The translations under genes and the position numbers were made by a program. 17,256 nucleotides of DNA, from positions 1-17,256 of IMG/VR virus record IMGVR_UViG_2778261160_000003. One strand, given 5' to 3'. Every line of letters begins with the position of its first letter. Within the stretch, counting starts at the first letter, position 1. The notes under the pieces were generated by a model that saw only the letters and a list, made by a program, of their open reading frames with translations, searched no databases and had not been told where the DNA came from. This stretch comes from a virus (Duplodnaviria; Heunggongvirae; Uroviricota; Caudoviricetes). Positions 1-16,322 of the stretch are shown one piece after another.

Positions 1-1053
1 TTACGGGGTAATGCCAACCGCTGCCGCCACTTTGTCGCCACTTGGCAGCGTTGCCAGAGGATTGAAACGGAGCGCCGTTTCCAGATGATCCGGTGCCAGA
101 TGTGCGTAACGCATAGTCATTTTTATATCGTGGTGTCCGAGAATTTTTTGTAAGGCCAGAATGTTTCCACCCGACATCATGAAGTGCGCCGCAAACGTAT
201 GGCGCAGAACGTGTGTGAGTTGACCGCGAGGGAGCACGATAGACGTTTTTTCCATCACGGATAAAAATTGAAAATAGCAGTCTGTGAAGAAATTGAACCC
301 ATCAAGCGCCATGATCTCTTCGTAAAGCTCTTTACTGATAGGGATGCTTCTGTTTTTCTTCCCCTTCGTTCGTACAAAGGTAATTCGGTATTTGGTCACC
401 TGTGAACGAGTAAGATTTACGGCTTCTCGCCAGCGTGCGCCTGTGCTTAAGCATATCTTAACTACCAGTGCCAGAATTGGGTCCTGACGTTTGCAATCAG
501 CCAGTAATTCAACAATCTGCTCATGGGTAAGCCATGCCATCTCTTTTTCTGCGATGGTGAATTTTCGCATGTTCTCCAGTGGGTTCGGATACGACCATTC
601 GCCCAGGCGGGATAGTTCGCTAAAAACACTACTTAGATAGCTTTGCTCCAGGTTAATGGTGACCGGGCTTGCTCCTTTCTTCCATTTCTCGCTGAAGTAG
701 ATCTCACCTGTCAGGCGTTTATCTCGATAGTGGGCAAACATTTTAGAGGTTAGATCAGTTGCAAGGGGATTGCCCAGAGCGTCAACCATCAGCAGCAATT
801 TGTCATAGACATGCTGCCCAGCAGTCAGTGATTTACCATGTAGTTTGAACCATAGCTCAACCACGTCTTTCAGTGTTCGACGATCCACTGATTCACCTAG
901 CCAGGGCTTTGCTTCGGTTTCTTCCATCGTGTGACGCTCAAAAGCCAGTGCTTCGCCTTTGGTGGCGAATTGTTTACGCACACGACGCCCACTACGTCCG
1001 GCGGGGTAACATTCGCAAAGCCATTTTCCTGTGGTGAGTTTTCGTACAGCCAT
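1..1053 (-). CDS. int: Prophage tyrosine integrase (P2/186-like)
   Basis: 350-codon minus-strand ORF; ATG is revcomp of 1051-1053, preceded by GGAGGG. N-terminus MAVRKLTTG..GRRVRKQFATKGEALAFE and boxes CLSTGARWREA / HVLRHTFA / MRYAHL resemble P2 Int as I recall it. Stop codon is bases 1-3. The ORF track extends to 1131 but has no RBS there. Confidence 0.9.
   Translation of the reverse strand: MAVRKLTTGKWLCECYPAGRSGRRVRKQFATKGEALAFERHTMEETEAKPWLGESVDRRTLKDVVELWFKLHGKSLTAGQHVYDKLLLMVDALGNPLATDLTSKMFAHYRDKRLTGEIYFSEKWKKGASPVTINLEQSYLSSVFSELSRLGEWSYPNPLENMRKFTIAEKEMAWLTHEQIVELLADCKRQDPILALVVKICLSTGARWREAVNLTRSQVTKYRITFVRTKGKKNRSIPISKELYEEIMALDGFNFFTDCYFQFLSVMEKTSIVLPRGQLTHVLRHTFAAHFMMSGGNILALQKILGHHDIKMTMRYAHLAPDHLETALRFNPLATLPSGDKVAAAVGITP
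19..40. repeat. Candidate attL core, 22-bp direct repeat CGCTGCCGCCACTTTGTCGCCA
   Basis: Matches 14402-14423 at 21 of 22 positions in direct orientation (single C/T difference). Lies in the last codons of int. Confidence 0.55.
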
Positions 1054-1078
1054 AAAAAATGCCCTCCAATAGAGAGCA

Positions 1079-1106
1079 TTTTTACTGTATGTATAACCAG
1101 TGTCAA
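1079..1106 (-). promoter_or_regulatory. Putative int promoter with a LexA-box-like CTG-N10-CAG in the spacer
   Basis: Read on the minus strand: TTGACA (revcomp of 1101-1106), 16-17 nt spacer, TAAAAA(T). The spacer contains CTGGTTATACATACAG (plus strand CTGTATGTATAACCAG, 1085-1100). It is 30-50 bp upstream of the int ATG. Confidence 0.35.
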
Positions 1107-1241
1107 TGTATGAAATCCTGCGACCATACATCTCACTGAAGCCATAATGAAGTAGGCTATTCTTTTTGCTATGTGATCATGTAACTTTTGCGGTTAACCT
1201 GTGGCTCATTTTTATTTTAGGCGCAGATATAAAAGCAAAAG

Positions 1242-1448: not shown

Positions 1449-2018
1449 CTATTTAACATACTTGACTGTTAAACTTATAATTTTACCAATTATTTCAATG
1501 TCTTCTATCTTACATTCGAAGGCTCTGTTTCCACCCTCGACGAAGATTCTTCCACCGGGTAAACGAGTAATGTCACGGATCGTTATTTCGCCATCAATAC
1601 TTATTACCCATTTACCATCACGTATATCATCAAATTCCTTATCACAAATAAATTCAGAATTATTATCTGTGATTACAAAAAGATTCTTGAATGCCGACGG
1701 TAGAAATTCTCTATCGAAAATATAAAAACCGTCTTCACACAAGGCCCCATCAGATAATACATATTTAGCAACTTCCATAGTATTTGTATTACCTGAAGTT
1801 TGCTTTGAACCATGCCCGGTTGTGAGCCAATTAAGCGAGGTGCCTGTTTCAAGGGCGCACTGGATTACCCATTCTGCTGGGAATGAGTCACGCATGTAGC
1901 GTGTGGCGAGTGTACTTTTAGAGATTCCTAAATGATCGCACAACGCCTGTCGAGTCTTGAATCCATAAGCTTCTACCATGCGCTCTATGGCGCCTCGTCC
2001 GCCTTTCTCCAAATTCAT
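1449..2018 (-). CDS. cI: CI-type immunity repressor (phage 186 CI-like)
   Basis: 189 codons from the ATG at revcomp 2016-2018, with GGAG about 5 nt upstream; the ORF track extends to a GTG at 2024. N-terminal HTH-like segment EAYGFKTRQALCDHLGISKSTLATRY. Size and position (between int and the divergent early operon) match 186 CI from memory. Confidence 0.75.
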   Translation of the reverse strand: MNLEKGGRGAIERMVEAYGFKTRQALCDHLGISKSTLATRYMRDSFPAEWVIQCALETGTSLNWLTTGHGSKQTSGNTNTMEVAKYVLSDGALCEDGFYIFDREFLPSAFKNLFVITDNNSEFICDKEFDDIRDGKWVISIDGEITIRDITRLPGGRIFVEGGNRAFECKIEDIEIIGKIISLTVKYVK

Positions 2019-2042
2019 GGTCACTCCAAGTGAACTTTTATC

Positions 2043-3721: not shown

Positions 3722-3948
3722 TGGCTGATGCAATGGATCTCGTACAGCAGCGCGTTGAAGAAGAACGCCAGCGCCACATCCGTGCTGCCCGTGCCAAAAC
3801 ACCGGGCGTGTCTCGCGTGCTTTGCATAGAGTGTGAAGCGCCAATTCCGCCAGCACGCCGCCGCGCCATTCCGGGAGTGCAGCTTTGCATTACCTGTCAG
3901 GAAATCGCAGAGCTGAAAGGTAAACATTACAACGGAGGTGCTGTATGA
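3721..3948 (+). CDS. TraR/DksA-family C4 zinc-finger protein
   Basis: 75 codons with CIECEAPIPPARRRAIPGVQLCITCQE (CxxC-N17-CxxC), the pattern of phage/plasmid TraR-like proteins. Start overlaps the upstream stop. Confidence 0.7.
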   Translation: MADAMDLVQQRVEEERQRHIRAARAKTPGVSRVLCIECEAPIPPARRRAIPGVQLCITCQEIAELKGKHYNGGAV

Positions 3949-4802
3949 GCACCATCCTGAAATGGGCGGGTAATAAAACCGCCATTATGCCAGAACTGAA
4001 AAAATACCTTCCTGCTGGCCCGCGACTGGTTGAACCTTTCGCGGGTTCTTGTGCTGTGATGATAGAGACGGATTACCCCAGCTATCTTGTTGCGGATATT
4101 AATCCTGATTTAATCAACCTCTATAAAAAGGTTGCTGCTGATTGCGAGGCGTTTATATCTCGTGCCAGAGCTTTATTTGAGGAAGCAAACAGGGAGGTGG
4201 CTTATTACAACATAAGGCAGGAGTTTAATTACTCCACTGAAATTACTGATTTCATGAAAGCGGTATATTTCCTGTATCTCAATCGTCATGGTTACCGTGG
4301 GTTATGTCGCTATAACAAGAGCGGGCATTTCAACATTCCCTATGGGAATTATAAAAATCCGTATTTCCCTGAAAAAGAAATTCGCAAATTTGCAGAAAAA
4401 GCCCAGCGAGCAACGTTTATCTGCGCCAGCTTTGATGAAACGCTGGCGATGTTGAAGGCGGGGGATGTGGTGTATTGCGATCCGCCTTATTACGGTACGT
4501 TTTCCGGCTATCACACTGATGGCTTCACTGAGGATGACCAGTATCACCTGGCATCCGTTCTTGAACATCGATCATCTGAAGGTCATCCGGTCATTGTTTC
4601 TAACAGTGACACATCCCTGATTCGTTCGCTGTATCGCAATTTCACTCACCACTACATCAAGGCAAAACGCAGCATCGGCGTGTCGGCTGGCAAGAGTAAA
4701 TCTGCAACAGAAATCATTGCTGTTTCCGGGGCGCGCTGCTGGGTGGGATTTGATCCTTCGCGTGGCGTAGATAGTTCTGCTGTGTACGAGGTGCGTGTAT
4801 GA
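3945..4802 (+). CDS. dam: DNA adenine (N6) methyltransferase, Dam family
   Basis: 285 codons. N-terminal KWAGNK, AdoMet-binding-like EPFAGSCAV, catalytic DPPY (CDPPYYGT). Start overlaps the upstream stop (ATGA) and its stop overlaps the A start. Confidence 0.85.
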
Positions 4803-7213
4803 GTCATGACGATATGAGCAACTCTAGCGGCTTTAACGAGGCCGCCGCATCATTTTCATGGAACGGCCCGAAAAAGGCCATTAACCCTTATCTGGACCCG
4901 GCGGAAGTTGCGCCGGAGTCTGCACTTTCAAACCTGATCACTCTGTATGCTGCCGATAACGAGCAGGAACAACTGCGCCGCGAGGCACTGAGTGAGCAGG
5001 TCTGGGAGCGTTATTTCTTTAATGAATCCCGTGATCCTGTCCAGCGCGAAATGGAGCAGGATAAGCTCATTAGCCGGGCAAAGCTGGCGCATGAGCAGCA
5101 GCGTTTTAATCCAGACATGGTCATTCTGGCTGACGTCAACGCCCAGCCTTCCCATATCAGCAAGCCGCTGATGCAACGTATTGAATACTTCAGCAGCCTG
5201 GGCAGGCCAAAGGCTTATTCCCGCTATTTGCGTGAGACGATTAAGCCATGTCTGGAACGGCTGGAGCATGTACGCGACAGTCAGCTATCCACTTCTTTTC
5301 GCTTTATGGCGAGCCATGAAGGGCTGGACGGCCTGCTGATCCTGCCTGAAATGAGTCAGGATCAGGTGAAACGCCTGTCCACCCTGGTAGCTGCGCATAT
5401 GAGCATGTGCCTTGATGCAGCTTGTGGCGATTTGTATGCCACCGATGACGTTAAGCCAGAAGAAATCCGCAAGACATGGGAAAGGGTGGCAGCAGAAACC
5501 CTGCGACTGGATGTCATCCCACCTGCGTTTGTGCAACTCCGCCGGAAAAGAAACCGCCGTAAACCCGTGCCCTATGAACTCATTCCGGGTTCGCTGGCGC
5601 GTATGTTGTGCGCCGACTGGTGGTATCGGAAATTATGGAAGATGCGTTGCGAATGGCGGGAAGAGCAGTTGCGTGCTGTCTGCCTTGTCAGCAAAAAAGC
5701 ATCTCCCTATGTCAGCTATGAAGCCGTGATGCATAAACGTGAGCAGCGCCGTAAGTCGCTGGAGTTTTTCCGTTCTCATGAACTGGTGAACGAAGACGGC
5801 GACACGCTGGACATGGAGGATGTGGTAAACGCCAGCAGCAGCAACCCTGCGCATCGCCGCAATGAGATGATGGCCTGTGTTAAAGGTCTGGAGCTTATCG
5901 CGGAAATGCGCGGTGACTGCGCCGTTTTCTACACCATCACCTGTCCGTCACGTTTCCATTCCACGCTAAATAACGGCAGGCCCAACCCGACCTGGACAAA
6001 TGCGACGGTAAGACAAAGCAGTGATTATCTGGTCGGCATGTTTGCTGCATTTCGTAAGGCAATGCACAAAGCCGGATTGCGGTGGTATGGCGTGCGGGTG
6101 GCTGAGCCGCATCATGACGGTACAGTTCACTGGCACCTGTTGTGTTTTATGCGCAAAAAAGACCGCCGCGCCATCACTGCATTACTGCGTAACTTTGCCA
6201 TCCGTGAAGACCGCGAGGAGCTGGGCAATAACACGGGGCCGCGCTTTCAGTCTGAGCTGATTAATCCGCGCAAAGGAACGCCGACAAGCTACATCGCGAA
6301 ATATATCAGTAAGAATATTGACGGGCGTGGTCTGGCTGGCGAGATCAGCAAGGAAACGGGTAAATCTCTGCGTGATAACGCTGAATACGTTAATGCCTGG
6401 GCGTCTCTGCATCGTGTTCAGCAATTCCGCTTCTTTGGCATTCCGGGGCGTCAGGCTTACCGTGAACTGCGATTGCTGGCTGGTCAGGCGGCAAGGCAGC
6501 AGGGTGACAAAAAAGCAGGTGCGCCGGTACTGGATAACCCGCGCCTTGATGCCATTCTGGCTGCTGCTGATGCTGGTTGTTTTGCCACCTATATCATGAA
6601 GCAGGGCGGCGTACTGGTTCCCCGTAAATATCACCTCATCAGAACCGCTTATGAAATCAACGAAGAGCCGACCGCCTATGGCGATCACGGTATTCGTATT
6701 TATGGCATCTGGTCACCCATTGCAGAGGGCAAGATCTGCACTCATGCAGTGAAGTGGAAAATGGTTCGTAAAGCCGTTGACGTTCAGGAGGCGGCAGCCG
6801 ACCAGGGCGCTTGCGCCCCTTGGACTCGTGGCAATAACTGTCCCCTTGCGGAAAATTTGAACCAACAGGAGAAAGATAAATCAGCTGATGGGGACACCAG
6901 AACGGACATTACCCGCATGGATGACAAGGAGTTGCACGATTACCTGCACAGTATGAGCAAAAAAGAGCGCCGGGAACTGGCAGCAAGGTTACGCCTGGTT
7001 AAGCCGAAACGGCGTAAAGACTACAAACAGCGAATTACAGATCATCAGCGACAGCAGCTCGTCTATGAACTGAAGTCCAGAGGATTTGATGGCAGCGAGA
7101 AAGAGGTCGATTTACTCCTTCGCGGTGGCAGTATTCCGTCAGGAGCAGGCCTGCGTATCTTCTATCGGAACCAGCGTTTGCGGGAAGATGATAAGTGGCG
7201 GAATCTGTATTAA
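4799..7213 (+). CDS. A: Rolling-circle replication initiator endonuclease (P2 gpA-like)
   Basis: 804 codons with an HUH-type motif TVHWHLLCF and a paired-tyrosine motif YIAKYISK (YxxxY), as in P2 A. Sits at the end of the early operon. Confidence 0.9.
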
Positions 7214-7365: not shown

Positions 7366-7554
7366 ATGCAGGACTATTTTTTGGAGTCTTTGAAGCTCCA
7401 GCGCATTGATTTTTTTCTTAAGCTTGTAGCGGCTAGTGAGTGTAGTGATGAAGAGAAGGGGCTGGCCCTGCAGTGGGTTTCTGAACTGACAGATGAACTC
7501 ATGGCAAAAATCAGAACCCACGAATACAACCGCTCAATGGATGTCATCAGCTGA
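7366..7554 (+). CDS. Small hypothetical protein, first gene of the putative SOS-controlled operon (Tum-position antirepressor candidate)
   Basis: 62 codons, strong RBS AGGAGG 4 nt before the ATG, downstream of the LexA box. In phage 186 the equivalent LexA-controlled position holds the tum antirepressor; sequence similarity not verified. Confidence 0.5.
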   Translation: MQDYFLESLKLQRIDFFLKLVAASECSDEEKGLALQWVSELTDELMAKIRTHEYNRSMDVIS

Positions 7555-7564
7555 GGTGACTTTT

Positions 7565-7798
7565 ATGCGCATTGAAATAATGATCGATAAAGAGCAAAAG
7601 ATTAGCCAGTCTACACTGGACGCCCTTGAATCCGAGCTTTACCGCAATCTGCGCCCCCTGTATCCCAAAACGGTAATTCGTATCCGCAAAGGTAGCTCTA
7701 ACGGTGTGGAACTGACCGGACTGCAACTGGACGAAGAAAGAAAACAAGTGATGAAAATTATGCAGAAGGTGTGGGAAGACGACAGCTGGCTGCATTAA
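7565..7798 (+). CDS. dinI: DinI-family protein
   Basis: 77 codons from ATG 7565, with GAGGTG 5 nt upstream. Begins MRIEIMIDKEQ and ends QKVWEDDSWLH, mirroring E. coli DinI (MRIEVTIAK ... ETWESADDW) in pattern and size. Confidence 0.7.
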   Translation: MRIEIMIDKEQKISQSTLDALESELYRNLRPLYPKTVIRIRKGSSNGVELTGLQLDEERKQVMKIMQKVWEDDSWLH

Positions 7799-7922: not shown

Positions 7923-7948
7923 TTTTTGCTAAGGCCCGCCAGAACTGG
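7923..7948 (+). terminator. Rho-independent terminator after the dinI-like gene
   Basis: GGCCCGCCAG / CTGGCGGGC stem with a short loop, followed by TTTTG. Confidence 0.5.
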
Positions 7949-8212
7949 CGGGCTTTTGCGTAGATCATGCAGGTGCATGAAAACCACTACATAAAGCGGG
8001 CAGGCGTGGCGGGGATACGAGCGCGCGCTGAAAAGGTTTAGCTAAATTTTTGTCGATAGGTGGTTTTAGTTGTTATACAAAAGTGTCACTGGTTTTGTTT
8101 TGAGCATTTGTGGTGCTAAAAATATTTTTTTTGGTTCAAAATTACCTTAAAAAGGTTTTTTTGGTGTATGATTGTTTGAAAAGTGGTTCGGTTTTGCCAT
8201 AAGGGTGGTTAG

Positions 8213-9295
8213 ATGATAAACGTTACAAACGAAATGCTCATTGATGTTGTCAGTGATGCTCTTACCGGGAAGAGGGAAAGTCTCCTCATGCGGTTGCGGA
8301 TTATGGCAAAAAAACTAAAAAAAGAATCTCCTGAATTAGCGGGTAAATTAGAAGATTTACTTATTAATACGGGTGGCGCAATTGCAGTCGAAAGGGCTAA
8401 TCCAGTTGTTCCTAAAATAACACCTGTTGATGCGGATACAAGACAAAAGCTGCTAGTTGAAACATATCCTGTGGTCATTGATGTTGAACCTGTTTGGCCA
8501 ACAAAAACTGATGTTCAACTGAATCGATTTGTGGCTGAGTGGGAAATGAAAGAACGCCTTTATAAAGAAGGGTTGCATCCCTCCAAATCTCTTCTTATGG
8601 GAGGACCACCCGGTGTGGGGAAGACTTTGGCTGCAAAGTGGCTCGCTTTTAAACTCGATATGCCATTGTTAACATTAGATCTCGCAAGTGTAATGAGTAG
8701 CTACTTGGGGAAAACGGGTAATAATATTAAGGCAGTCCTCAATTATGCTTCGTCATTCCCTTGTGTACTGCTTCTTGACGAATTTGATGCGATTGCTAAA
8801 AAAAGGGATGATGCAACAGATGTTGGAGAACTAAAAAGATTAGTTACAGTATTATTGCAAGCAATTGATGAATGGCCAAATACGTCTGTTCTTATAGCAG
8901 CAACTAACCATGCGGAGCTGCTTGATCCTGCTGCATGGAGAAGATTCGATCGAGTTATTGATTTTGAATATCCAACACAAGACCTAATGAGAAGATATCT
9001 CTGTTCTAAAAATATTGGAGATAGCTTATCGTACTATATTGCTACAAAACTCGAAAAAGTTTCATATGCAGTTCTTGAGAGAGCTATAAATCAAGCTAAA
9101 AGAAATGCCATTATAGAAGATATTCCTTTAAGTTCAGCTTTAATTGATGAGTTGTTAGATGGCGTGTCACTTGATGATGTTATAAAAAACATGTCAAACA
9201 ACAATGTATCACAAAGAAAAATCGCTTTAGATTTGGGGATTTCAAGGTCACAAGTACGTAAGGTTTTGACGGTTGAGGATGAAGACAATGAATGA
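8213..9295 (+). CDS. AAA+ ATPase with C-terminal HTH-like tail (cargo gene 1)
   Basis: 360 codons. Walker A GPPGVGKT (Lys codon 8621-8623), Walker B VLLLDEFD (8777-8782), sensor-1 IAATNH, second-region-of-homology-like AAWRRFDRV. C-terminal SQRKIALDLGISRSQVRKVL resembles a helix-turn-helix. AT-rich. Confidence 0.85.
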   Translation: MINVTNEMLIDVVSDALTGKRESLLMRLRIMAKKLKKESPELAGKLEDLLINTGGAIAVERANPVVPKITPVDADTRQKLLVETYPVVIDVEPVWPTKTDVQLNRFVAEWEMKERLYKEGLHPSKSLLMGGPPGVGKTLAAKWLAFKLDMPLLTLDLASVMSSYLGKTGNNIKAVLNYASSFPCVLLLDEFDAIAKKRDDATDVGELKRLVTVLLQAIDEWPNTSVLIAATNHAELLDPAAWRRFDRVIDFEYPTQDLMRRYLCSKNIGDSLSYYIATKLEKVSYAVLERAINQAKRNAIIEDIPLSSALIDELLDGVSLDDVIKNMSNNNVSQRKIALDLGISRSQVRKVLTVEDEDNE

Positions 9296-11480
9296 TAAAA
9301 ATATGCTTCTTGGCTATGGTGAAACACTAACTAACCCTGTTAAACTTAACAGAGGTGGAGGTGAAAAGAATAAACCTTACTCTTATTCAGAAAATAAACC
9401 AGTGATATCTGCTCAACTGGAAGAGTTGATTGAGGAAATTAATACCCTTCCATTGTTAGCAATGCCTGAAGGTAAGGCTGTAGCAAAATTTGTTTTGCAT
9501 CCGGCATTCTTAGCAAAAAGTTATTTTCCAGTAAGTCTTTTTGAGCGATTTTCCCTAGAAAGCATAGGCAGTAAGGCTGTAAAAGTAAAACCTAGAAAAG
9601 ATATTAAAAAAAGAGGGCGAAAAGAGGAATACACTACAGCGTGTATTTATGTTTCTGGCAAAAAAGAAAGTTTTCAATCATTCTTAGACTCTGTAAATCA
9701 AGATACCCTAACGAAAGGGCAGCAAAATGATTTTGTCACCTTAGAAAATATTTCAATACTGGAAGTTTCAGATAAAGTAAAAACGATTAATAGCAATGAA
9801 GTTATGAGTATTGAGGTCGCCTTACATACTCCTGATACAAGTTCCTCTATTGTCGATAGTTTTGAAGTTTTTGCTTCGCAAAATGGTGCTGTTATAGATA
9901 AGGCAAGAAGTATAAAAGTTAAGGGGCTAACCTTTATGCCTATTAAGGCTAGTAAAGATGTAGCTTTAAAAGTTGCAGAGTTTTCATTTCTCAGGACTTT
10001 GAGAGAACTTCCTGAATTAAGGCTAAGTGAGCCTGTTATATCACGTTCTGTGATTCAAACATCTAACCTTAGTTTACCATCTGAAGGAGCGGTAAACCCA
10101 CACATAAAGGTTGCCATATTCGATGGTGGATTGGGGATCGATGATTTCAATCCTTGGGTAACAGAGTACACTTTCAACGGTAATGCTAGTACTAATGCAA
10201 AACTTCTTTCTCATGGACAGGATGTCACCTCTACTGTGTTATTTGGTGTTCTTGGCTCTGAAACGGAAAAATTAAGTGTTCCTTATTGTAATATTGACCA
10301 TTATCGTGTACTGGATTCCAATGTTAATAACTCAGATGTCGATCTTTTTGACGTTCTGATCCGTATTAAAAGTGTATTAGAACAAAAAAAATATGATTAT
10401 ATCAATCTGAGCTTAGGACCTAGATTACCTGTTGATGACGATGACGTGCATGTGTGGACCTCAACTCTTGAGGAGATACTTGCATCAGGAGAAACACTTT
10501 GTACTGTCGCGGTTGGAAATGATGGTCAGCTGCCTGCCAAGTTAAATCGAATTCAACCACCTGCTGATTTAGTTAATGGTCTGTCAGTAGGTGCAGCAAC
10601 CTCTTTATCTGATAGTTGGGAAAGATGTTCTTACAGTTGTATTGGTCCTGGACGAAGCCCTGGCTTTGTGAAGCCTGATGGAGTTGCATTTGGAGGACAT
10701 TCTGATGAGCCATTCCAGGTATACAGCCCTATGGTTAATGGTCTTGCCCGCACTGCGGGGACTAGCTTTTCTGCTCCATTAGTCCTGAGGCAAGCAATCG
10801 CGTTAAGTGCTTCTCTAAATTACAACATTACACCACTTACGGCTAAAGCTCTGCTTATACATCATGCGGAGAGCAATAATATCAATCGTGCTGAAGTTGG
10901 TTGGGGACGATTTCCTCATGATCTTAGTGAAGTAATATTTTGTGATGATGATGAAGTTAAAGTTATATATCAAGGTACTTTAAAACCATCACAACACATG
11001 CGAGCACCTATTCCGTTTCCAGATGTACCTATGCGTGGATGTGTAAATTTAAGAGCGACATTCTGTTTTTCCAGTCCTGTTGATGCGGAACATCCTTTGA
11101 ATTATACAAGAAGCGGTCTAGAAGTAACCATGAGAAAAGGTGTTTCAGATAGTTCCGGGTTAACGTTTCCTCTTTTTAATCTAAAAAATGTTTATGCAGA
11201 TGAAAATGAGCAACGTGTTGATGCACATAAATGGGAGACTACGTTAAGAAGTGAACACAAATTTAAACCGAATGAGCTGACAAACCCATGCTTTGATATT
11301 ATCTACTATGGTAGAGACTGTGGTATGCCTATTGATGTTGACGAGTTAGAAGAACTACCATATGTTCTTGTTGTGACTTTATCTGCTGAAGAAATGCCGG
11401 ATTTATATAACCTAATTAGGCAGAAATATCAAACCTTACAGCCTATCCAAGTTCAACAGCAAATTATGTTACGTACTTAA
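9288..11480 (+). CDS. Subtilisin-like serine protease, S8 family, no signal peptide (cargo gene 2)
   Basis: 730 codons from ATG 9288; alternative ATG at 9279, ORF track starts at TTG 9273. Start overlaps the ATPase stop as ATGAATGA. Catalytic motifs in canonical order: Asp in VAIFDGG (10122-10124), His in SHGQDV (10212-10214), Asn in AVGNDG (10518-10520), Ser in GTSFSAP (10764-10766). N-terminus is hydrophilic. Confidence 0.85.
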   Translation: MNDKNMLLGYGETLTNPVKLNRGGGEKNKPYSYSENKPVISAQLEELIEEINTLPLLAMPEGKAVAKFVLHPAFLAKSYFPVSLFERFSLESIGSKAVKVKPRKDIKKRGRKEEYTTACIYVSGKKESFQSFLDSVNQDTLTKGQQNDFVTLENISILEVSDKVKTINSNEVMSIEVALHTPDTSSSIVDSFEVFASQNGAVIDKARSIKVKGLTFMPIKASKDVALKVAEFSFLRTLRELPELRLSEPVISRSVIQTSNLSLPSEGAVNPHIKVAIFDGGLGIDDFNPWVTEYTFNGNASTNAKLLSHGQDVTSTVLFGVLGSETEKLSVPYCNIDHYRVLDSNVNNSDVDLFDVLIRIKSVLEQKKYDYINLSLGPRLPVDDDDVHVWTSTLEEILASGETLCTVAVGNDGQLPAKLNRIQPPADLVNGLSVGAATSLSDSWERCSYSCIGPGRSPGFVKPDGVAFGGHSDEPFQVYSPMVNGLARTAGTSFSAPLVLRQAIALSASLNYNITPLTAKALLIHHAESNNINRAEVGWGRFPHDLSEVIFCDDDEVKVIYQGTLKPSQHMRAPIPFPDVPMRGCVNLRATFCFSSPVDAEHPLNYTRSGLEVTMRKGVSDSSGLTFPLFNLKNVYADENEQRVDAHKWETTLRSEHKFKPNELTNPCFDIIYYGRDCGMPIDVDELEELPYVLVVTLSAEEMPDLYNLIRQKYQTLQPIQVQQQIMLRT

Positions 11481-11485
11481 CAATG

Positions 11486-11509
11486 TGGAGGGGTTCCCCC
11501 TCCTTTATT
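11486..11509 (+). terminator. Rho-independent terminator after the cargo cassette
   Basis: GGAGGGG - TTC - CCCCTCC hairpin followed by TTTATT, 6 nt after the protease stop codon. Confidence 0.5.
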
Positions 11510-11518
11510 AAGCTTTAT

Positions 11519-12133
11519 CTATGTTGATTGTGGGTCATCGTTTATTAAGTTATATTTTTCAAAATGGATAATATTAATTCCTAACCATTCATTAAATTCC
11601 TGTAATCGTTTTTGTAAAGGCATTAATTCATTTCGAACAAACACTCGACTCGCCTTCTCTACATCTCCAAATCCTCCAACATTACTTGGCATAATCCCCA
11701 TCATTTGCGGCGGCACACGGTGTGCCGCCATCATGTCGTCCCGGCTCACGTTCTTGATATTCAGAAACTCATCCTTCGCCGCGACTTCTGACAACGGGAT
11801 GATCTGAAGCCCGTCCTTTTTGCCGTTAGGCGAGTACATAAACAGGTTGCGGAAGTTGCCAGGGCCTTTGGCGCTTTTCATCGCATTGCGGAGGTTGTTC
11901 ACATCCTCCTGGTTCTGCGCGGCATCGGTCATGTACATGATGAAGCCTGCATGACTGCCGTTAATATAATACTTCCGGCGGAACAGCGTGGCGGACTCGT
12001 TGAGCAGGGCTGACGGAATGGCAGAAAGATAACCTGGCAGGCCGTAGATCTCCTGGTTGATGTCAGGTTCCATCAGATGAAAAATGCTGCCTTTCGTGAA
12101 CTGATACGGCTGGGTTGTCATACCGTATTGCAC
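11519..12133 (-). pseudogene. Q: Portal protein (P2 Q-like) C-terminal fragment
   Basis: 204-codon minus-strand ORF with portal-like sequence, in the position and orientation of P2 Q. Far shorter than an intact portal; its 5' part is replaced by tail tube sequence on the opposite strand. Confidence 0.6.
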
Positions 12134-12558
12134 AAACCAGTAGGTATCCAGGTCTAACCCGCGTCGGGTGTATTTTGCCAGTGGATGTGGATCTGGGGCT
12201 TGATGACAGTGCGCTGGACACAGAATTTTCCATTGGTGGTACTGAATTGCTGCTGTTTAAGCAGATGGGCAAAGCCACGGTGGATGGCATCCAGTTGCGC
12301 TTTACCGGCTCTATCCAGCGTGACGATACCGGGGAAGTGCAGGCCGTGGAGCTTGTGGTGCGTGGACGTCACAAAGAAGTGGATTCCGGTGAGTGGAAGA
12401 CGGGCGAAAGCAACACCACCAAAGTGACCAGTACCAACAGCTACGCGAAGCTGACCATCAATGGTGAGGTGCTCTATGAAGTGGACCTTATCAACATGGT
12501 GGAAATTGTGGACGGTGTGGACCTGATGGAAGCGCACCGCAACGCCCTCGGCCTCTGA
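12115..12558 (+). pseudogene. FII: Major tail tube protein (P2 FII-like) C-terminal fragment
   Basis: ORF contains PVDVDLGLDDSALDTEF ... RFTGSIQRDDTGE ... INMVEIVDGVDLMEAHRNALGL, matching my memory of the P2 FII C-terminal half. Recognisable similarity probably begins near 12170. No sheath or upstream tail genes are present. Confidence 0.6.
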
Positions 12559-12612
12559 TGTATCTGAACGGCGCGGGATTCCGCGCCAGAACCCAATTTA
12601 CAGGACAACAAA

Positions 12613-12915
12613 ATGAGCGATAAGCAGACTGAAAAGACCATTCAACTGGATACCCCTATCAAGCGCGGTAAAACAGAAATTACCGAAATTGTGCTGCGTA
12701 AACCGCAGTCCGGTGCGCTGCGCGGTACACGCCTGCAGGCCATTATGGATATGGATGTGAACGCGATGATGACCGTGATCCCCCGCATTTCCAGTCCGGC
12801 ACTGACTGCACAGGAAATCGCAGAGATGGACCCGGCAGATCTCACAGCCATGTCGGTTGAGGTTGTCACTTTTTTGTTGAAGAAGTCGGTGCTTGCCGGT
12901 TTACCGACAGCCTGA
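12613..12915 (+). CDS. E: Tail assembly chaperone E (P2 gpE-like)
   Basis: 100 codons, MSDKQTEKTIQLDTPIKRGKTEITEI ... AEMDPADLTAM, immediately upstream of the tape-measure gene. Confidence 0.8.
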   Translation: MSDKQTEKTIQLDTPIKRGKTEITEIVLRKPQSGALRGTRLQAIMDMDVNAMMTVIPRISSPALTAQEIAEMDPADLTAMSVEVVTFLLKKSVLAGLPTA

Positions 12916-13049
12916 CGGTTGACGATCTGGTGGCAGATATCGCCACCATCTTTCACTGGCCGCCATCCGTTACTGACGTTATGCCGCTGACCGAAGTGCT
13001 GGAATGGCGGTATAAAGCGATTCAGAGAAGCGGGGCCAACGATGAGTGA
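12613..13049 (+). CDS. E+E' fusion product via programmed -1 ribosomal frameshift
   Basis: Slippery heptamer T TTT TTG at 12870-12876 near the end of E. The -1 frame is open from 12876 to a TGA at 13047-13049 (checked codon by codon) and overlaps the T start codon. Confidence 0.6.
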
Positions 13050-13971
13050 TAATAACCTGCGCCTGCAGGTCATTCTTAATGCGGTTGACAAACTCACCCG
13101 CCCATTCCGTGCTGCACAGGCCAGTTCGAAAGAGCTGGCTGGCGCAATCAGAAACTCCCGTGACGCATTAAAGCAACTCAATCAGGCGGGTAACAGCCTG
13201 GAAAAATTTCGCAAGCTGCAGGCCGATAACAAGAAGTTAGGCGACAGGCTGAACTATGCCAGACAGAAGGCTAATTTGCTTAGCTCTGAGCTGGAGGCGA
13301 TGGAACAACCATCACAAAGGCATCTTGTGGCTTTAGGTCGGCAAACGCTGGCAGTCCAACGCCTGGAAGAACAACAAAAATATTTGCAGAAGCAAACGGC
13401 TCTTGTGCGTGCAGAACTGTACCGGGCGGGAATTTCTGCGAAAGATGATGCGGGAGCAACTGCCCGTTTAGCCCGTGAAACATCACGTTATAACCAGGAA
13501 CTTTCGAAACAAGAGGCGCGGCTGAAGCGACTGGGGGAAGCTCAGCGCAGGATGAATGCGGCGCGTGCCAGTTATGCCCGTTCGCTGGAGGTGCGTGATC
13601 GTATTGCAGGTGCCGGAGCCACCACCACGGCTGCAGGGCTGGCAATGGGCGCACCAGTGATGGCGGCAGTAAAAAGCTATACCAGCATGGAAGATGCCAT
13701 GAAAGGTGTGGCAAAGCAGGTCAATGGTCTGCGTGACGATAATGGCAACCGCACCGCGCGTTTTTACGAAATGCAGGATGCCATCAAGGCTGCCAGCGAA
13801 CAGTTGCCGATGGAAAACGGTGCTGTGGACTTTGCTGCACTGGTTGAAGGTGGTGCGCGTATGAACGTCGCAAACCCTGACGACAGCTGGGAAGACCAGA
13901 AACGTGACCTGCTGGCCTTCGCCAGTACGGCGGCAAAGGCGGCAAATGCCTGTGAAGGTCAGTGGTTTTAA
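13042..13971 (+). pseudogene. T: Tail tape measure protein (P2 gpT-like), truncated N-terminal portion
   Basis: 309-codon ORF starting MSDNNLRLQVILNAVDKL with coiled-coil-like Gln/Ala/Arg-rich sequence. Far shorter than an intact tape measure; its 3' end runs into a D-like fragment in another frame. Confidence 0.6.
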
Positions 13972-14092
13972 ACAGCCGATAGATGATGCGGAATGGACCA
14001 TTACGACTCTGACACATACCGTCAGCCCGGATAACGGTTTTACGACCAGTCTGGAGCTTGAAGTGAGGATTGATGATTTCGAAATGGAATGA
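13904..14092 (+). pseudogene. D: Tail protein D (P2 gpD-like) C-terminal fragment
   Basis: 62-codon ORF ending SGFKQPIDDAEWTITTLTHTVSPDNGFTTSLELEVRIDDFEME, directly upstream of ogr as in P2. Fragment only. Confidence 0.5.
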
Positions 14093-14182
14093 TTCTTCGC
14101 AATGGAGAACTTTTAAGTTTGCAAAATGGAATAATACGGTATCATTATTGTGAATGTAGCAAAAATGGGGAGAACTCGAAAA

Positions 14183-14401
14183 ATGATGATTTGCCCACTG
14201 TGTGGAAGTGCCGCCCATACTCGCAGCAGTTTTCAGGTATCTTCATTGACCAAAGAGCGTTACAACCAGTGCCAGAACATTAACTGCAGCCATACTTTTG
14301 TTACTCATGAAACTTTTGTTCGTTCGATTGCAACGCCTAAAGAGTCAAATCCGGTTCAGCCGCATCCAATGAAATCTGGACAGGTGGCGCTCTCTCTTTG
14401 A
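14183..14401 (+). CDS. ogr: Late-gene transcriptional activator, Ogr/Delta zinc-finger family
   Basis: 72 codons from ATG 14183; the ORF track starts at 14150. MMICPLCGSAAHTRSS ... KERYNQCQNINCSHTF closely matches P2 Ogr (MFHCPLCQHAAHARTS ... KERYHQCQNVNCSATF) from memory. Confidence 0.85.
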   Translation: MMICPLCGSAAHTRSSFQVSSLTKERYNQCQNINCSHTFVTHETFVRSIATPKESNPVQPHPMKSGQVALSL

Positions 14402-14423
14402 CGCTGCCGCCATTTTGTCGCCA
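14402..14423. repeat. Candidate attR core, 22-bp direct repeat CGCTGCCGCCATTTTGTCGCCA
   Basis: 21 of 22 identical to 19-40. Begins immediately after the ogr stop codon. Confidence 0.55.
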
Positions 14424-14481
14424 TCGTTAAAAAACAGTGCTTCTAACATCATGATTTTAAACGGTATAAATTTCAGGCAAC

Positions 14482-14524
14482 AAAAAACCCATCAACCTTG
14501 AACCGAAATGGCGGGGTTGATGGG
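14482..14524 (-). terminator. Putative ybjL rho-independent terminator
   Basis: Inverted repeat CCCATCAACC (14488-14497) / GGTTGATGGG (14515-14524) with a T-run on the minus strand (plus strand CAAAAAA at 14481-14487). The 17-nt loop is larger than typical. Confidence 0.4.
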
Positions 14525-14636
14525 CTCCACAAAATGGGGACATCAAAGAAAAGCAGTGGCATTAATTAAGACTGATGCCCTGCGGAAAAGTTCTGCGGTT
14601 GTGCAAAAAAATTTCATTTTCAGGGCAACTTCAGTT

Positions 14637-16322
14637 TTATCCTAATCCTGGCCATACCATGACGATGATTGTCCCTGCCAGCGTCAGCAGGACGTTGGCG
14701 ATTGCGTAGGTGCCCGCATAGCCCAGCGCAGGGATGTTACTGCGAGCTGTATCACTGATGATCTCCATTGCCGGCGCGCAGGTGCGTGCGCCCATCATTG
14801 CGCCGAACAACAGTGCGCGGTTCATTCGCAATACATAAGCACCGAACAAGAAACAGATAACCACGGGCACAAGACTGACAATTAATCCGGCAATCAACAT
14901 CTGACCGCCAATCGCGCCCAGGCCGTTATTAATACCGCTACCGGCGCTCAGACCAACGCCTGCCATAAACACCATCAAGCCGAACTCTTTCACCATGCTT
15001 AATGCACCTTGCGGAATGTAACCGAAGGTCGGGTGGTTAGCACGCATAAAGCCCAGCATAATTCCGGCGAATAACAACCCGGCAGCGTTCCCCATGCCGA
15101 AACTGAATGTGCTGAACTGGAAGGTGATCATCCCGATCATCAGCCCAATAACAAAGAAGGCGCAAAATGCCAGCAGGTCAGTGACCTGGCTGTGAATCGA
15201 GATAAAGCCGATGCGATCGGCGATGGTTTTTACGCGACGGGCATCACCGCTGACTTGTAAAACGTCACCTTTGTTAAGCACGACGTTGTCATCTATCGGC
15301 ATCTCAATCTGGCTACGAATGACGCGGTTAAGGAAGCAACCGTGATCGGTCAACTTCAGTTGTGCGAGACGTTTACCTACAGCGTTATGGTTTTTAACGA
15401 CCACTTCTTCAGTGACGATACGCATGTCGAGAAGGTCACGATCGAAAACTTCTTTACCGTTACGGAAGCTGGGATCGAGTCGGGCATGGGCGTCGGGATA
15501 GCCTACCAACGCTATTTCATCGCCCATTTGTAGCACGGCATCACCGTCTGGATTTGCCAGAATCCCGTTACGTCGAATACGTTCAATGTAGCAGCCGGTT
15601 TGTCGATAAATACCCAGTTCACGCAGATTTTTGCCGTCGGTCCAGGCCACCAGCTCCGGGCCGACGCGATAGGCGCGGATCACCGGTAAATAAACCTTAC
15701 GGTTGGCATCAGTGTCCAGGCCACGTTCGCGGGCGATTTGCTGGGCGCTGGTCTGTAAGTCCTGATGCTGCAATTTCGGCAAGTAACGCGCACCAACAAT
15801 CAAACTCACCAGACCGATTAAATAGGTTAAGGCATACCCGAGGCTCAGATTATCCAGTGCCAGTGAGAGCTGCCTGCTTTCCATGCCGGAATGACGCAGT
15901 GTATCGCCAGCACCGACCAGAACCGGTGTCGACGTCATAGAGCCTGCTAACATACCGGCCGTCAGGCCAATATCCCAGCCAAACAGCTTACCTAACCCTA
16001 AGGCGATCACCAGCGCACTGCCAACCATCACCAGTGCTAACATTAGGTAATTTTTCCCATCGCGAAAAAAAATGGAAAAAAAGTTCGGTCCGGCTTCGAC
16101 CCCGACGCAGAAAATAAACAGCATAAAGCCAAGATTAAGCGCATCGGTGTTAATGCTGAAATGTTGTTGGCCTAATAACAGCGATACGACTAAAACGCCA
16201 ATGGAATTACCCAGTTGGATCGAACCAAGTCGTAACTTTCCGAGACATAGCCCAAGCGCGAGGACCACAAATAATAACAGAATGTAATTCCCATTTAACA
16301 ATTCGGCGACGTTTATATTCAC
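14637..16322 (-). CDS. ybjL: Putative transport protein YbjL (AAE-family transporter)
   Basis: 561 codons; sequence [33 protein letters not shown]... recognised as E. coli YbjL. Multiple hydrophobic segments and central soluble domains. Confidence 0.9.

What the first reader, a model, noticed from the sequence alone, without database searches (positions are those of the whole stretch)
9288..11480. Subtilase is predicted cytoplasmic with large uncharacterised N- and C-terminal extensions
Most S8 subtilases are secreted with a signal peptide and pro-domain. This protein starts with a hydrophilic segment (MNDKNMLLGYGETLTNPVKLNRGGGEKNKPYSYSENKP) and has no hydrophobic leader. The catalytic Asp is at about residue 279 and the Ser at about 493, so roughly 270 residues precede and 230 follow the catalytic core. 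An intracellular protease with extra domains would need tight control, consistent with partnership with the ATPase; the extensions could be sensor, autoinhibitory or substrate-recruitment domains.
Basis: partly seen in the sequence, partly recalled or inferred. Interest (0 to 1): 0.6.

Follow-up and report, generated by a model that had tools for sequence, protein, structure and literature searches.

The report
IetAS protease toxin in P2 prophage
The gene encodes the cytoplasmic subtilisin-like protease of a known two-gene ATPase/protease toxin-antitoxin and anti-phage system (IetAS). It sits in the defence-gene hotspot of a decayed P2-like prophage, and its "extra" domains look like a retained subtilisin pro-domain and a common C-terminal beta-sandwich.

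Summary
ORF 9288-11480 encodes a 730-aa S8 subtilase with an intact triad (D279, H309, S493; oxyanion N411). It has no signal peptide, lipobox, Tat motif or membrane helix. About 262 residues precede the catalytic core and about 185 follow it.

It is a known kind of system. The protease and the overlapping upstream AAA ATPase (8213-9295) match the PADLOC IetS and IetA models (E 1.8e-48 and 6.7e-84). IetAS is a toxin-antitoxin and abortive-infection anti-phage system: the protease is the toxin and the ATPase the antitoxin. The pair lies between gpA and portal gpQ of a decayed P2-like prophage, which is the published P2 defence hotspot.

It is a divergent member. Both proteins score below the NCBIfam equivalog cut-offs, and the protease has no BLASTP similarity to the founding pTiC58 IetS.

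The extensions resolve as follows:
- An invariant N-terminal tail.
- A clade-specific α/β module.
- A C-terminal β-jelly-roll, as in Tk-SP, KP-43 and Csp subtilases.

Likely mechanism (inferred): a zymogen-like protease is held off by an ATP-dependent AAA+ remodeller and released on phage infection.

Interest is modest. The system is ordinary, but the family's mechanism is unsolved.

The parts
8213..9295 (+). ietA: 360-aa classic-clade AAA+ ATPase, the putative antitoxin or regulator. Motifs: Walker A G131-T138, pore-loop-1 Y164-L165-G166, Walker B D189-E190, sensor N232, Arg fingers R243/R244.
   Evidence: PADLOC IetA PDLC02196 E 6.7e-84, full length. Pfam AAA E 5.4e-30. NCBIfam IteA scores 247.7 bits against a cut-off of 510, with next hits to CDC48, PAN and FtsH. 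Motifs are invariant in the 6-sequence alignment A4, except the pore-loop aromatic position, which varies Y/F/L. Codons checked.
9176..9277 (+). C-terminal helix-turn-helix-like segment of IetA (residues 322-355, SQRKIALDLGISRSQVRKVL). Possibly an autoregulatory DNA-binding domain.
   Evidence: Weak Pfam HTH hits (CENP-B_N, HTH_23, HTH_19, HTH_3; E 0.005-0.05). The motif is conserved in 5 of 6 IetA proteins of this clade and absent from pTiC58 IetA. The function is inferred.
9288..11480 (+). ietS: 730-aa cytoplasmic S8 subtilase, the putative toxin or effector.
   Evidence: PADLOC IetS PDLC02197 E 1.8e-48. Pfam Peptidase_S8. NCBIfam IteS scores 122.8 bits against a cut-off of 900. AF2 model has pLDDT 83 and pTM 0.86.
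9288..9380 (+). Invariant N-terminal tail, residues 1-31 (M..KNLLLGYGETLT...GGG.K..PY). Function unknown. Candidate IetA-engagement tag or active-site plug.
   Evidence: N5, G9, G11, E12, L14, K27, P30 and Y31 are invariant in 50 homologues at 42-89% identity. Mean column identity is 0.61, against 0.49 for the rest of the N-region. The role is inferred.
9384..9782 (+). Long helix (residues 33-52) plus a first β-α-β-β-α-β subdomain (about residues 63-165). This N-module is specific to the clade.
   Evidence: Secondary structure of the AF2 model, with pLDDT mostly above 90. No Pfam hit at E<=10. The N-domain profile finds only IetS-like proteins, always at the N-terminus.
9804..10007 (+). I9-like pro-domain fold (about residues 173-240, β-α-β-β-α-β) packed against the catalytic domain.
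10008..10073 (+). Linker, residues 241-262, with conserved P242, L244, R245, P249 and R253. This is where a pro-peptide junction would lie; subtilisin's mature N-terminus corresponds to about residue 248.
   Evidence: Conservation. Low pLDDT of 59-62. Register from the hhalign with pro-subtilisin E. Autoprocessing was not shown.
10074..10922 (+). S8 catalytic domain, residues 263-545. Catalytic codons: D279 at 10122-10124, H309 at 10212-10214, N411 at 10518-10520, S493 at 10764-10766.
10923..11477 (+). C-terminal β-jelly-roll or β-sandwich domain, residues 546-730.
11487..11503 (+). Terminator-like G+C-rich hairpin followed by a T-run, 7 nt after the ietS stop.
   Evidence: This is a consensus scan only.
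4799..7213 (+). P2 gpA-type replication endonuclease, the left border of the P2 hotspot.
   Evidence: PHROG 91, E 9e-290. RefSeq annotation in L001.
11519..12133 (-). Truncated P2 portal (gpQ) remnant, covering only the C-terminal ~200 residues. This is the right border of the hotspot.
   Evidence: PHROG 68, E 1.2e-107, matching profile positions 146-342 of 344. The portal is full length in L001 and L007.

Best explanation
The ORF is the protease subunit (IetS-like) of a two-gene IetAS-type module. It is carried as cargo in the gpA-gpQ defence hotspot of a decayed P2-like prophage in an E. coli-type chromosome.

**Shown here**
- The protein is a cytoplasmic S8 subtilase with an intact catalytic machinery.
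- Its gene is translationally coupled to an upstream classic-clade AAA+ ATPase (IetA-like) that keeps its Walker motifs, arginine fingers and a pore loop.
- The protease is built as: invariant N-tail, clade-specific α/β module, I9-like pro-domain, S8 core, β-jelly-roll.

**Taken from experiments on relatives**
- The protease alone is toxic and the ATPase neutralises it.
- Protease activity is needed for phage defence.
- Defence works by abortive infection and can be set off by a single phage protein.

**Inferred mechanism**
1. IetS is made as a zymogen-like enzyme whose own pro-domain caps the active site.
2. The IetA hexamer engages IetS, probably through the invariant N-terminal tail or module. 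It spends ATP to keep IetS inactive by remodelling it or blocking its self-activation.
3. When a phage product inhibits or titrates IetA, or acts on IetS directly, the protease activates itself and cleaves essential cell or phage proteins.
4. The infected cell stops growing before phage are released.
5. The C-terminal HTH of IetA may autoregulate the operon, as type II antitoxins do.
6. The same toxin-antitoxin logic would also addict the host to the prophage remnant.
For: **Identity**
- PADLOC IetS E 1.8e-48 and IetA E 6.7e-84.
- NCBIfam's best hits are IteS and IteA.

**Conserved gene pair**
- The two genes overlap by 8 nt.
- The AAA gene lies directly upstream of the homologue in Leptospira, Sulfurovum and Cupriavidus contigs, in phage phiT5282H and in pTiC58.

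**Location**
- The pair lies between gpA and portal gpQ. This is the hotspot defined in PMC9122126.
- An isolated P2-like phage carries a 40%-identical pair at the same locus.
- GC is 38%, against 53% for gpA.

**Cytoplasmic and catalytically intact**
-.

**Pro-domain and jelly-roll**

**ATPase competence**
- Motifs conserved. Relatedness to CDC48, PAN and FtsH.

**Genetics in relatives**
- PMC5006074: sgiAT.
- PMC8562856: deleting the antitoxin alone is lethal.
- bioRxiv 10.1101/2022.08.27.505566: abortive infection, with toxicity triggered by SPβ YosG.
Against: - Nothing was tested on this allele. It is a divergent subtype: 122.8 of 900 bits for IteS and 247.7 of 510 for IteA.
- It has no BLASTP similarity to the pTiC58 IetS. 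Genetic results from relatives may therefore not transfer.
- The I9-like assignment rests on a predicted structure only. There is no sequence match to I9, and the model coordinates could not be inspected. That the pro-domain or the N-tail actually occludes the active site is therefore inferred.
- The direction of IetA action (inhibitor versus activator) is inferred from cloning failures in other subfamilies.
- No IetA-IetS complex could be modelled.
- Protease substrates and the phage trigger are unknown.
Confidence: 0.6

Rival explanations
1. IetA is an activator rather than an inhibitor. On sensing infection, the AAA+ unfoldase pulls the I9-like pro-domain or the N-tail off IetS and so switches the protease on. 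Without IetA the zymogen would stay silent.
For: - The zymogen-like architecture, with a covalently retained pro-domain.
- An intact pore loop and classic unfoldase relatives.
- An invariant, probably accessible N-terminal tail that would suit engagement by an unfoldase.
Against: - In relatives the protease is toxic on its own and the ATPase rescues the cell (PMC5006074; PMC8562856).
- An ietA mutant could not be cloned alongside an active protease (PMC13069673).
- Both results are the opposite of what an activator model predicts.
Confidence: 0.12
2. The pair is mainly an addiction (post-segregational killing) module that stabilises the P2 prophage remnant. Any anti-phage effect is secondary or absent for this allele.
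For: - The family was first described as a plasmid and island stabiliser: pTiC58, cited, and SGI1.
- In three loci examined (the window, L001, L007) the prophage's late genes are decayed with different deletion end-points, yet ietAS and the early region are intact.
- The allele is rare, in 11 of 5426 complete E. coli genomes.
Against: - The pair occupies exactly the P2 locus that holds old/tin and many validated defence systems (PMC9122126).
- IetAS systems from E. coli and B. cereus have measured anti-phage activity.
- The two roles are not mutually exclusive.
Confidence: 0.2
3. IetA and IetS form an ATP-dependent protease machine, like FtsH or Lon in trans. It unfolds and degrades specific phage proteins directly, without killing the host.
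For: - An AAA+ unfoldase with a pore loop is encoded next to, and translationally coupled with, a protease.
- The closest ATPase relatives are the partners of proteolytic machines: PAN, FtsH and CDC48.
Against: - Subtilases are open-cleft monomeric endopeptidases, not chambered proteases.
- The protease is toxic without its partner in relatives.
- The B. cereus system behaves as abortive infection.
Confidence: 0.08
4. The protease is exported by a non-classical route or released at lysis, and acts outside the cell like ordinary subtilases.
Against: - No signal peptide, lipobox, Tat motif or membrane segment in any of 50 homologues.
- The gene is always paired with a cytoplasmic AAA ATPase.
- Relatives are toxic inside the cell.
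Confidence: 0.02

Closest known systems
IetAS (Gao_Iet) anti-phage system: PADLOC IetA/IetS, NCBIfam IteA/IteS
   Same: - Two-gene operon with the AAA ATPase upstream of an S8 peptidase of about 730-750 aa.
- HMM matches span the N-module, the core and part of the C-domain.
- Found on mobile elements and prophages.
   Different: - Scores are far below the NCBIfam equivalog cut-offs: 122.8 of 900 and 247.7 of 510.
- Plasmid genes annotated iteS match only residues 263-659, at about 26% identity.
- No experiment exists on this clade that I could find.
pTiC58 IetA/IetS toxin-antitoxin (Yamamoto et al. 2009, J Bacteriol 191:4656; paper not held, cited through PMC13069673 and PMC5006074)
   Same: - Same gene order and tight spacing.
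- The ATPases are 40% identical over the AAA core.
- The protease core and the C-terminal domain align by profile (hhalign probability 73%, E 3e-5).
   Different: - pTiC58 IetS is 836 aa. It has no BLASTP similarity to the window protein and an unrelated N-terminal region of about 320 residues.
- pTiC58 IetA lacks the C-terminal HTH.
- The best PADLOC model differs: PDLC02198 for pTiC58 and PDLC02197 for the window protein.
SGI1 SgiAT and Mycoplasma TA132/133 (AAA-ATPase / subtilisin-like TA modules)
   Same: - Protease as toxin and AAA ATPase as antitoxin.
- Similar sizes: Mycoplasma 353 and 757 aa against 360 and 730 aa here.
- Chromosomal islands.
   Different: - Their described role is island stability, not phage defence.
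Pro-domain / S8 / β-jelly-roll subtilases (Tk-SP of Thermococcus, Clostridial CspA/B/C germination proteases, KP-43)
   Same: - Same order of folds around the catalytic domain.
- Csp enzymes keep their pro-domain bound as a regulator.
   Different: - Identity is only 13-21%.
- They have no partner ATPase.
- IetS has an additional ~170-residue N-terminal module and an invariant tail.
- Tk-SP and KP-43 are secreted.
Bacillus intracellular subtilisin proteases (ISP)
   Different: - ISPs carry only a short (~18-residue) inhibitory extension and no I9 domain, jelly-roll or ATPase partner.
- Any resemblance between the IetS K-x-x-P-Y tail and the ISP LIPY motif is recalled from memory and was not tested.

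Membership tests
IetAS / Gao_Iet defence system | Adjacent, co-oriented AAA ATPase gene followed by an S8 peptidase gene | tested here: met
   ietA is at 8213-9295 and ietS at 9288-11480, with an 8-nt overlap. The same arrangement is seen in 5 other loci.
IetAS / Gao_Iet defence system | Both proteins match the family's profile HMMs | tested here: met
   PADLOC IetS PDLC02197 E 1.8e-48 (163 bits, residues 25-617). PADLOC IetA PDLC02196 E 6.7e-84 (280 bits, full length).
NCBIfam IteS / IteA equivalogs (the experimentally anchored subfamily) | Score above the curated equivalog cut-off | tested here: not met
   IteS scores 122.8 bits against 900. IteA scores 247.7 bits against 510. The pair is therefore a divergent subtype, not an equivalog.
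IetAS / Gao_Iet defence system | Catalytically competent protease and ATPase, both required in tested relatives | tested here: met
   D279, H309, N411 and S493 are invariant. Walker A and B, the sensor residue and the Arg fingers are invariant.
IetAS / Gao_Iet defence system | Protease is toxic, the ATPase neutralises it, and the pair protects against phage | not testable with these tools
   Known only from relatives.
Subtilase family S8 (subtilisin-type) | Asp-His-Ser triad in that order, an oxyanion Asn, and the α/β subtilisin fold | tested here: met
   [not shown]
Secreted pre-pro-subtilases | N-terminal signal peptide | tested here: not met
   No hydrophobic run longer than 3 residues in the first 40 aa of 50 homologues. 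No lipobox or Tat motif. This is a heuristic test, not SignalP.
Peptidase inhibitor I9 pro-domain | β-α-β-β-α-β fold immediately N-terminal to, and packed on, the catalytic domain | tested here: inconclusive
   - Sequence level: no Pfam I9 hit at E<=10, and the pro-peptide was not aligned by hhalign.
- The coordinates could not be inspected.
P2-like prophage defence hotspot (Rousset et al. 2022) | Variable cargo located between replication gene A and portal gene Q | tested here: met
   - gpA lies at 4799-7213 and the portal remnant at 11519-12133.
- Annotated relatives L001 and L007 show the same arrangement.
- Phage phiT5282H carries a homologous pair at the same locus.
- The hotspot definition is in PMC9122126.

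The most novel reading that the evidence does not exclude
IetS is a self-capped zymogen, and the AAA+ partner acts as an ATP-fuelled 'dead-man switch'. IetA continuously threads or remodels IetS through the invariant N-terminal tail, so the I9-like pro-domain cannot be released. Any phage activity that stalls the ATPase frees a lethal subtilase.

This would be a new logic of immune regulation by regulated proteolysis in bacteria. It would also explain how one module serves as both addiction system and abortive-infection system.
Probability: 0.3. Interest if true: 0.7.

Novelty: new member of a known kind. Interest (0 to 1): 0.35.

Why it matters
The system itself is ordinary: a recognised defence and addiction module in a recognised prophage hotspot.

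[quoted passage not shown] The domain dissection here gives concrete, testable handles for that open question:
- an invariant N-tail;
- an I9-like pro-domain placed as in unprocessed pro-subtilases;
- a jelly-roll shared with the founding IetS;
- an ATPase with an intact pore loop and, in this clade, an HTH.

The question is how an AAA+ ATPase restrains a cytoplasmic subtilase and how phage release it.

Tried and rejected
**Sequence searches of the extensions**
- Pfam scans of residues 1-265 and 543-730 at E<=10 found nothing.
- A PDB profile search of the C-domain found nothing.
- The N-domain profile against 5.8 billion proteins returned only 18 IetS fragments.
- The same profile against 1.84 billion representatives returned only IetS-like proteins. 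There is therefore no evidence that the N-module is shared with other effector types.

**Comparison with pTiC58 IetS**
- BLASTP showed no similarity. Only a profile comparison links the core and C-domain.

**Tail-sheath resemblance**
- The match was not reproduced with the C-domain alone or by Foldseek against viral structures.
- I treat it as an unexplained, probably generic α/β resemblance of the N-region.

**Operator search**
- A search for repeats upstream of ietA found only short or terminator-like repeats.
- The promoter scan gave no more hits than shuffled sequence.

**Papers**
- Gao et al. 2020 and Yamamoto et al. 2009 are not held. Their content is cited second-hand.
- No mechanistic IetAS paper was found.

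**Not possible**
- The IetA-IetS complex could not be modelled.
- Model coordinates could not be inspected.
Full report
**1. Observation**

The ORF runs from the ATG at 9288 to the stop ending at 11480 and encodes 730 residues.
- A GAGGA ribosome-binding site lies 9 nt upstream. The start overlaps the stop of the preceding gene by 8 nt (ATGAATGA), so the two genes are translationally coupled.
- The longer TTG start at 9273 listed by the ORF finder is unlikely. In a 50-sequence alignment of homologues at 42-89% identity, M1 and the first 15 residues align at position 1. An N-domain profile matches from residue 1-12 of its hits.

- D279 (FDGG), H309 (HGQ), oxyanion N411 (GNDG) and S493 (GTSFS) are all invariant.
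- Profile alignment to subtilisin E pairs them with D32, H64, N155 and S221.
- Pfam Peptidase_S8 covers residues 289-540. PDB sequence relatives cover only 256-542.

No export signal was found.
- The highest 19-residue Kyte-Doolittle mean is 1.07 in the window protein.
- In all 50 homologues the longest hydrophobic run in the first 40 residues is 3. None has a lipobox or Tat motif.
- This is a heuristic test, because no SignalP-type tool was available.

**2. What it is**

The protease matches PADLOC IetS (PDLC02197, E 1.8e-48, residues 25-617). The upstream 360-aa protein (8213-9295) matches IetA (PDLC02196, E 6.7e-84, full length).

NCBIfam's best hits are the anti-phage IteS and IteA models, but both score far below the equivalog cut-offs: 122.8 of 900 bits and 247.7 of 510 bits.

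I located the founding pair on pTiC58, at NC_003065 97873-98859 and 98863-101373.
- The ATPases are 40% identical over the AAA core.
- The proteases share no BLASTP similarity.
- A profile comparison links them from the catalytic His through the C-terminal domain (probability 73%, E 3e-5).
- pTiC58 IetS best matches a different PADLOC model.

The window pair is therefore a genuine but divergent member of the IetAS family.

**3. Context**

The window is a decayed P2-like prophage. In order it contains:

| Feature | Coordinates |
|---|---|
| Integrase | 1-1131, minus strand |
| CI repressor | 1449-2024, minus strand |
| CII | 2392-2907 |
| Dam methylase | 3945-4802 |
| gpA replication endonuclease | 4799-7213 |
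| DinI-like | within 7493-7798 |
| ietA-ietS | 8213-11480 |
| Truncated portal gpQ | 11519-12133, minus strand |
| Tail-gene fragments | 12613-13971 |
| Host gene ybjL | 14637-16322, minus strand |

- The gpA-gpQ interval is the P2 defence hotspot that holds old and tin in P2 itself (PMC9122126).
- An isolated P2-like phage, Enterobacter phiT5282H, carries a 40%-identical AAA/S8 pair at the same locus.
- The cargo has 38% GC, against 53% for gpA.
- Only 11 of 5426 complete E. coli genomes carry this allele, all on the chromosome at 99% nucleotide identity or more. In the two loci examined (L001, L007) it sits next to ybjL.
- Their late-gene regions are decayed differently, while ietAS is intact.
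- Full-length homologues also occur in a Pseudomonas Pf phage, in Paenibacillus phages and on plasmids of several phyla.
- The AAA gene directly precedes the homologue in Leptospira, Sulfurovum and Cupriavidus contigs.

**4. The extensions**

An AF2 model of the whole protein is confident (pLDDT 83, pTM 0.86).

- EpiP.
- PCSK9 and the Clostridial Csp proteins.

The β-α-β-β-α-β pattern of residues 173-240 sits just before the catalytic domain. Together these results indicate a retained I9-like pro-domain docked as in pro-subtilisin. There is no sequence-level I9 signal, and I could not inspect the coordinates, so the occlusion of the active site is inferred.

Upstream of the pro-domain lie a second β-α-β-β-α-β subdomain (about residues 63-165), a long helix (33-52) and a strikingly invariant tail (N5, G9, G11, E12, L14, K27, P30, Y31).

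The N-module is specific to the family.
- A profile search of 1.84 billion representative proteins finds 884 clusters.
- In the best 150 the match is always at the extreme N-terminus, in proteins of 723-766 aa or in fragments of them.

This domain is shared with pTiC58 IetS.

**5. The partner**

IetA is a classic-clade AAA+ protein, with next-best relatives CDC48, PAN and FtsH. These motifs are conserved across six IetA proteins, although the pore-loop aromatic position itself varies Y/F/L:
- Walker A at G131-T138;
- a pore-loop-1 Y164-L165-G166;
- Walker B at D189-E190;
- sensor N232;
- Arg fingers R243/R244.

This clade also has a C-terminal helix-turn-helix-like segment (residues 322-355). 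It gives weak Pfam HTH hits, is conserved in 5 of 6 sequences and is absent from pTiC58 IetA.

**6. Mechanism**

Experiments on relatives show the following.
- The protease is toxic and the ATPase neutralises it: SGI1 sgiAT (PMC5006074), Mycoplasma TA132/133, where deleting the antitoxin alone is lethal (PMC8562856), and pTiC58 as cited.
- Protease activity is required for defence. [quoted passage not shown]
- A B. cereus IetAS acts by abortive infection, and its toxicity is triggered by the SPβ protein YosG (bioRxiv 10.1101/2022.08.27.505566).
- E. coli ietAS tends to be prophage-borne (bioRxiv 10.1101/2022.08.21.504612).

Combining this with the anatomy, the best-supported model is:
1. IetS is a zymogen-like cytoplasmic subtilase.
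2. It is held inactive by an ATP-dependent AAA+ remodeller, probably engaged through the invariant N-tail or N-module.
3. It is released to kill the cell when a phage product disables the restraint.
4. The HTH would give antitoxin-style autoregulation.

Steps 1 and 2 and the HTH autoregulation are inferred. Step 3 and the toxin-antitoxin logic are extrapolated from relatives. Only the anatomy is shown here.

The rivals considered were an activator ATPase, a pure addiction module, an FtsH-like degradation machine and export. Each is less consistent with the genetics of relatives or with the sequence.

**7. Novelty and verdict**

This is a new, divergent member of a known kind of system in a known hotspot.

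The residual interest lies in the unsolved mechanism of the family and the specific handles listed in section 4. Interest is 0.35.

Noticed in passing
window 11519-14636; L001 13307-17715; L007 11232-17405: The P2-like prophage is decayed. In the window the portal gene is cut to its C-terminal ~200 codons, and only tail-protein and tape-measure fragments follow before ybjL. Two other strains with the same insertion have different deletion or frameshift patterns in the late genes. In all of them the early region and ietAS are intact. This fits retention of the cargo by selection or addiction.
   Followed up: partly
window 9176-9277 (IetA residues 322-355): IetA ends in a helix-turn-helix-like segment (SQRKIALDLGISRSQVRKVL). 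It is conserved in this clade and missing from pTiC58 IetA. It may autoregulate the operon as type II antitoxins do. No convincing operator repeat was found upstream.
   Followed up: partly
window 9288-9380 (IetS residues 1-31): The extreme N-terminus of IetS is more conserved than most of the protein. Eight residues are invariant across 50 homologues down to 42% identity, and it includes a K-x-x-P-Y motif. Its role is unknown. A resemblance to the inhibitory LIPY extension of Bacillus intracellular subtilisins is only recalled from memory and was not tested.
   Followed up: partly
[not shown]
   Followed up: partly
window 8000-11500: The ietAS cargo has 38% GC, while the flanking P2 genes have about 47-53% and ybjL 51%. 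This indicates acquisition from a lower-GC source. The identical protein is also recorded in Salmonella enterica (cluster P0001, 160 member sequences).
   Followed up: no
window 7928-7959 and 11487-11503: Two G+C-rich hairpins are followed by T-runs. One lies after the DinI-like gene, and so before the ietA promoter region. The other lies 7 nt after the ietS stop, facing the portal gene. They look like terminators that insulate the cargo.
   Followed up: no
window 3945-4802 and 7493-7798: The prophage early region also carries a Dam-type DNA adenine methylase, whose gene overlaps the start of gpA, and a DinI-like gene just upstream of the hotspot. Both are common P2-group accessory genes.
   Followed up: no
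L004-L006 (Leptospira, Sulfurovum, Cupriavidus contigs): Distant IetAS-like pairs sit next to integrases, a reverse transcriptase, a Zeta toxin, a Tle1-like lipase and a RelA/SpoT-domain gene. These are typical mobile-element or defence-island neighbourhoods.
   Followed up: no
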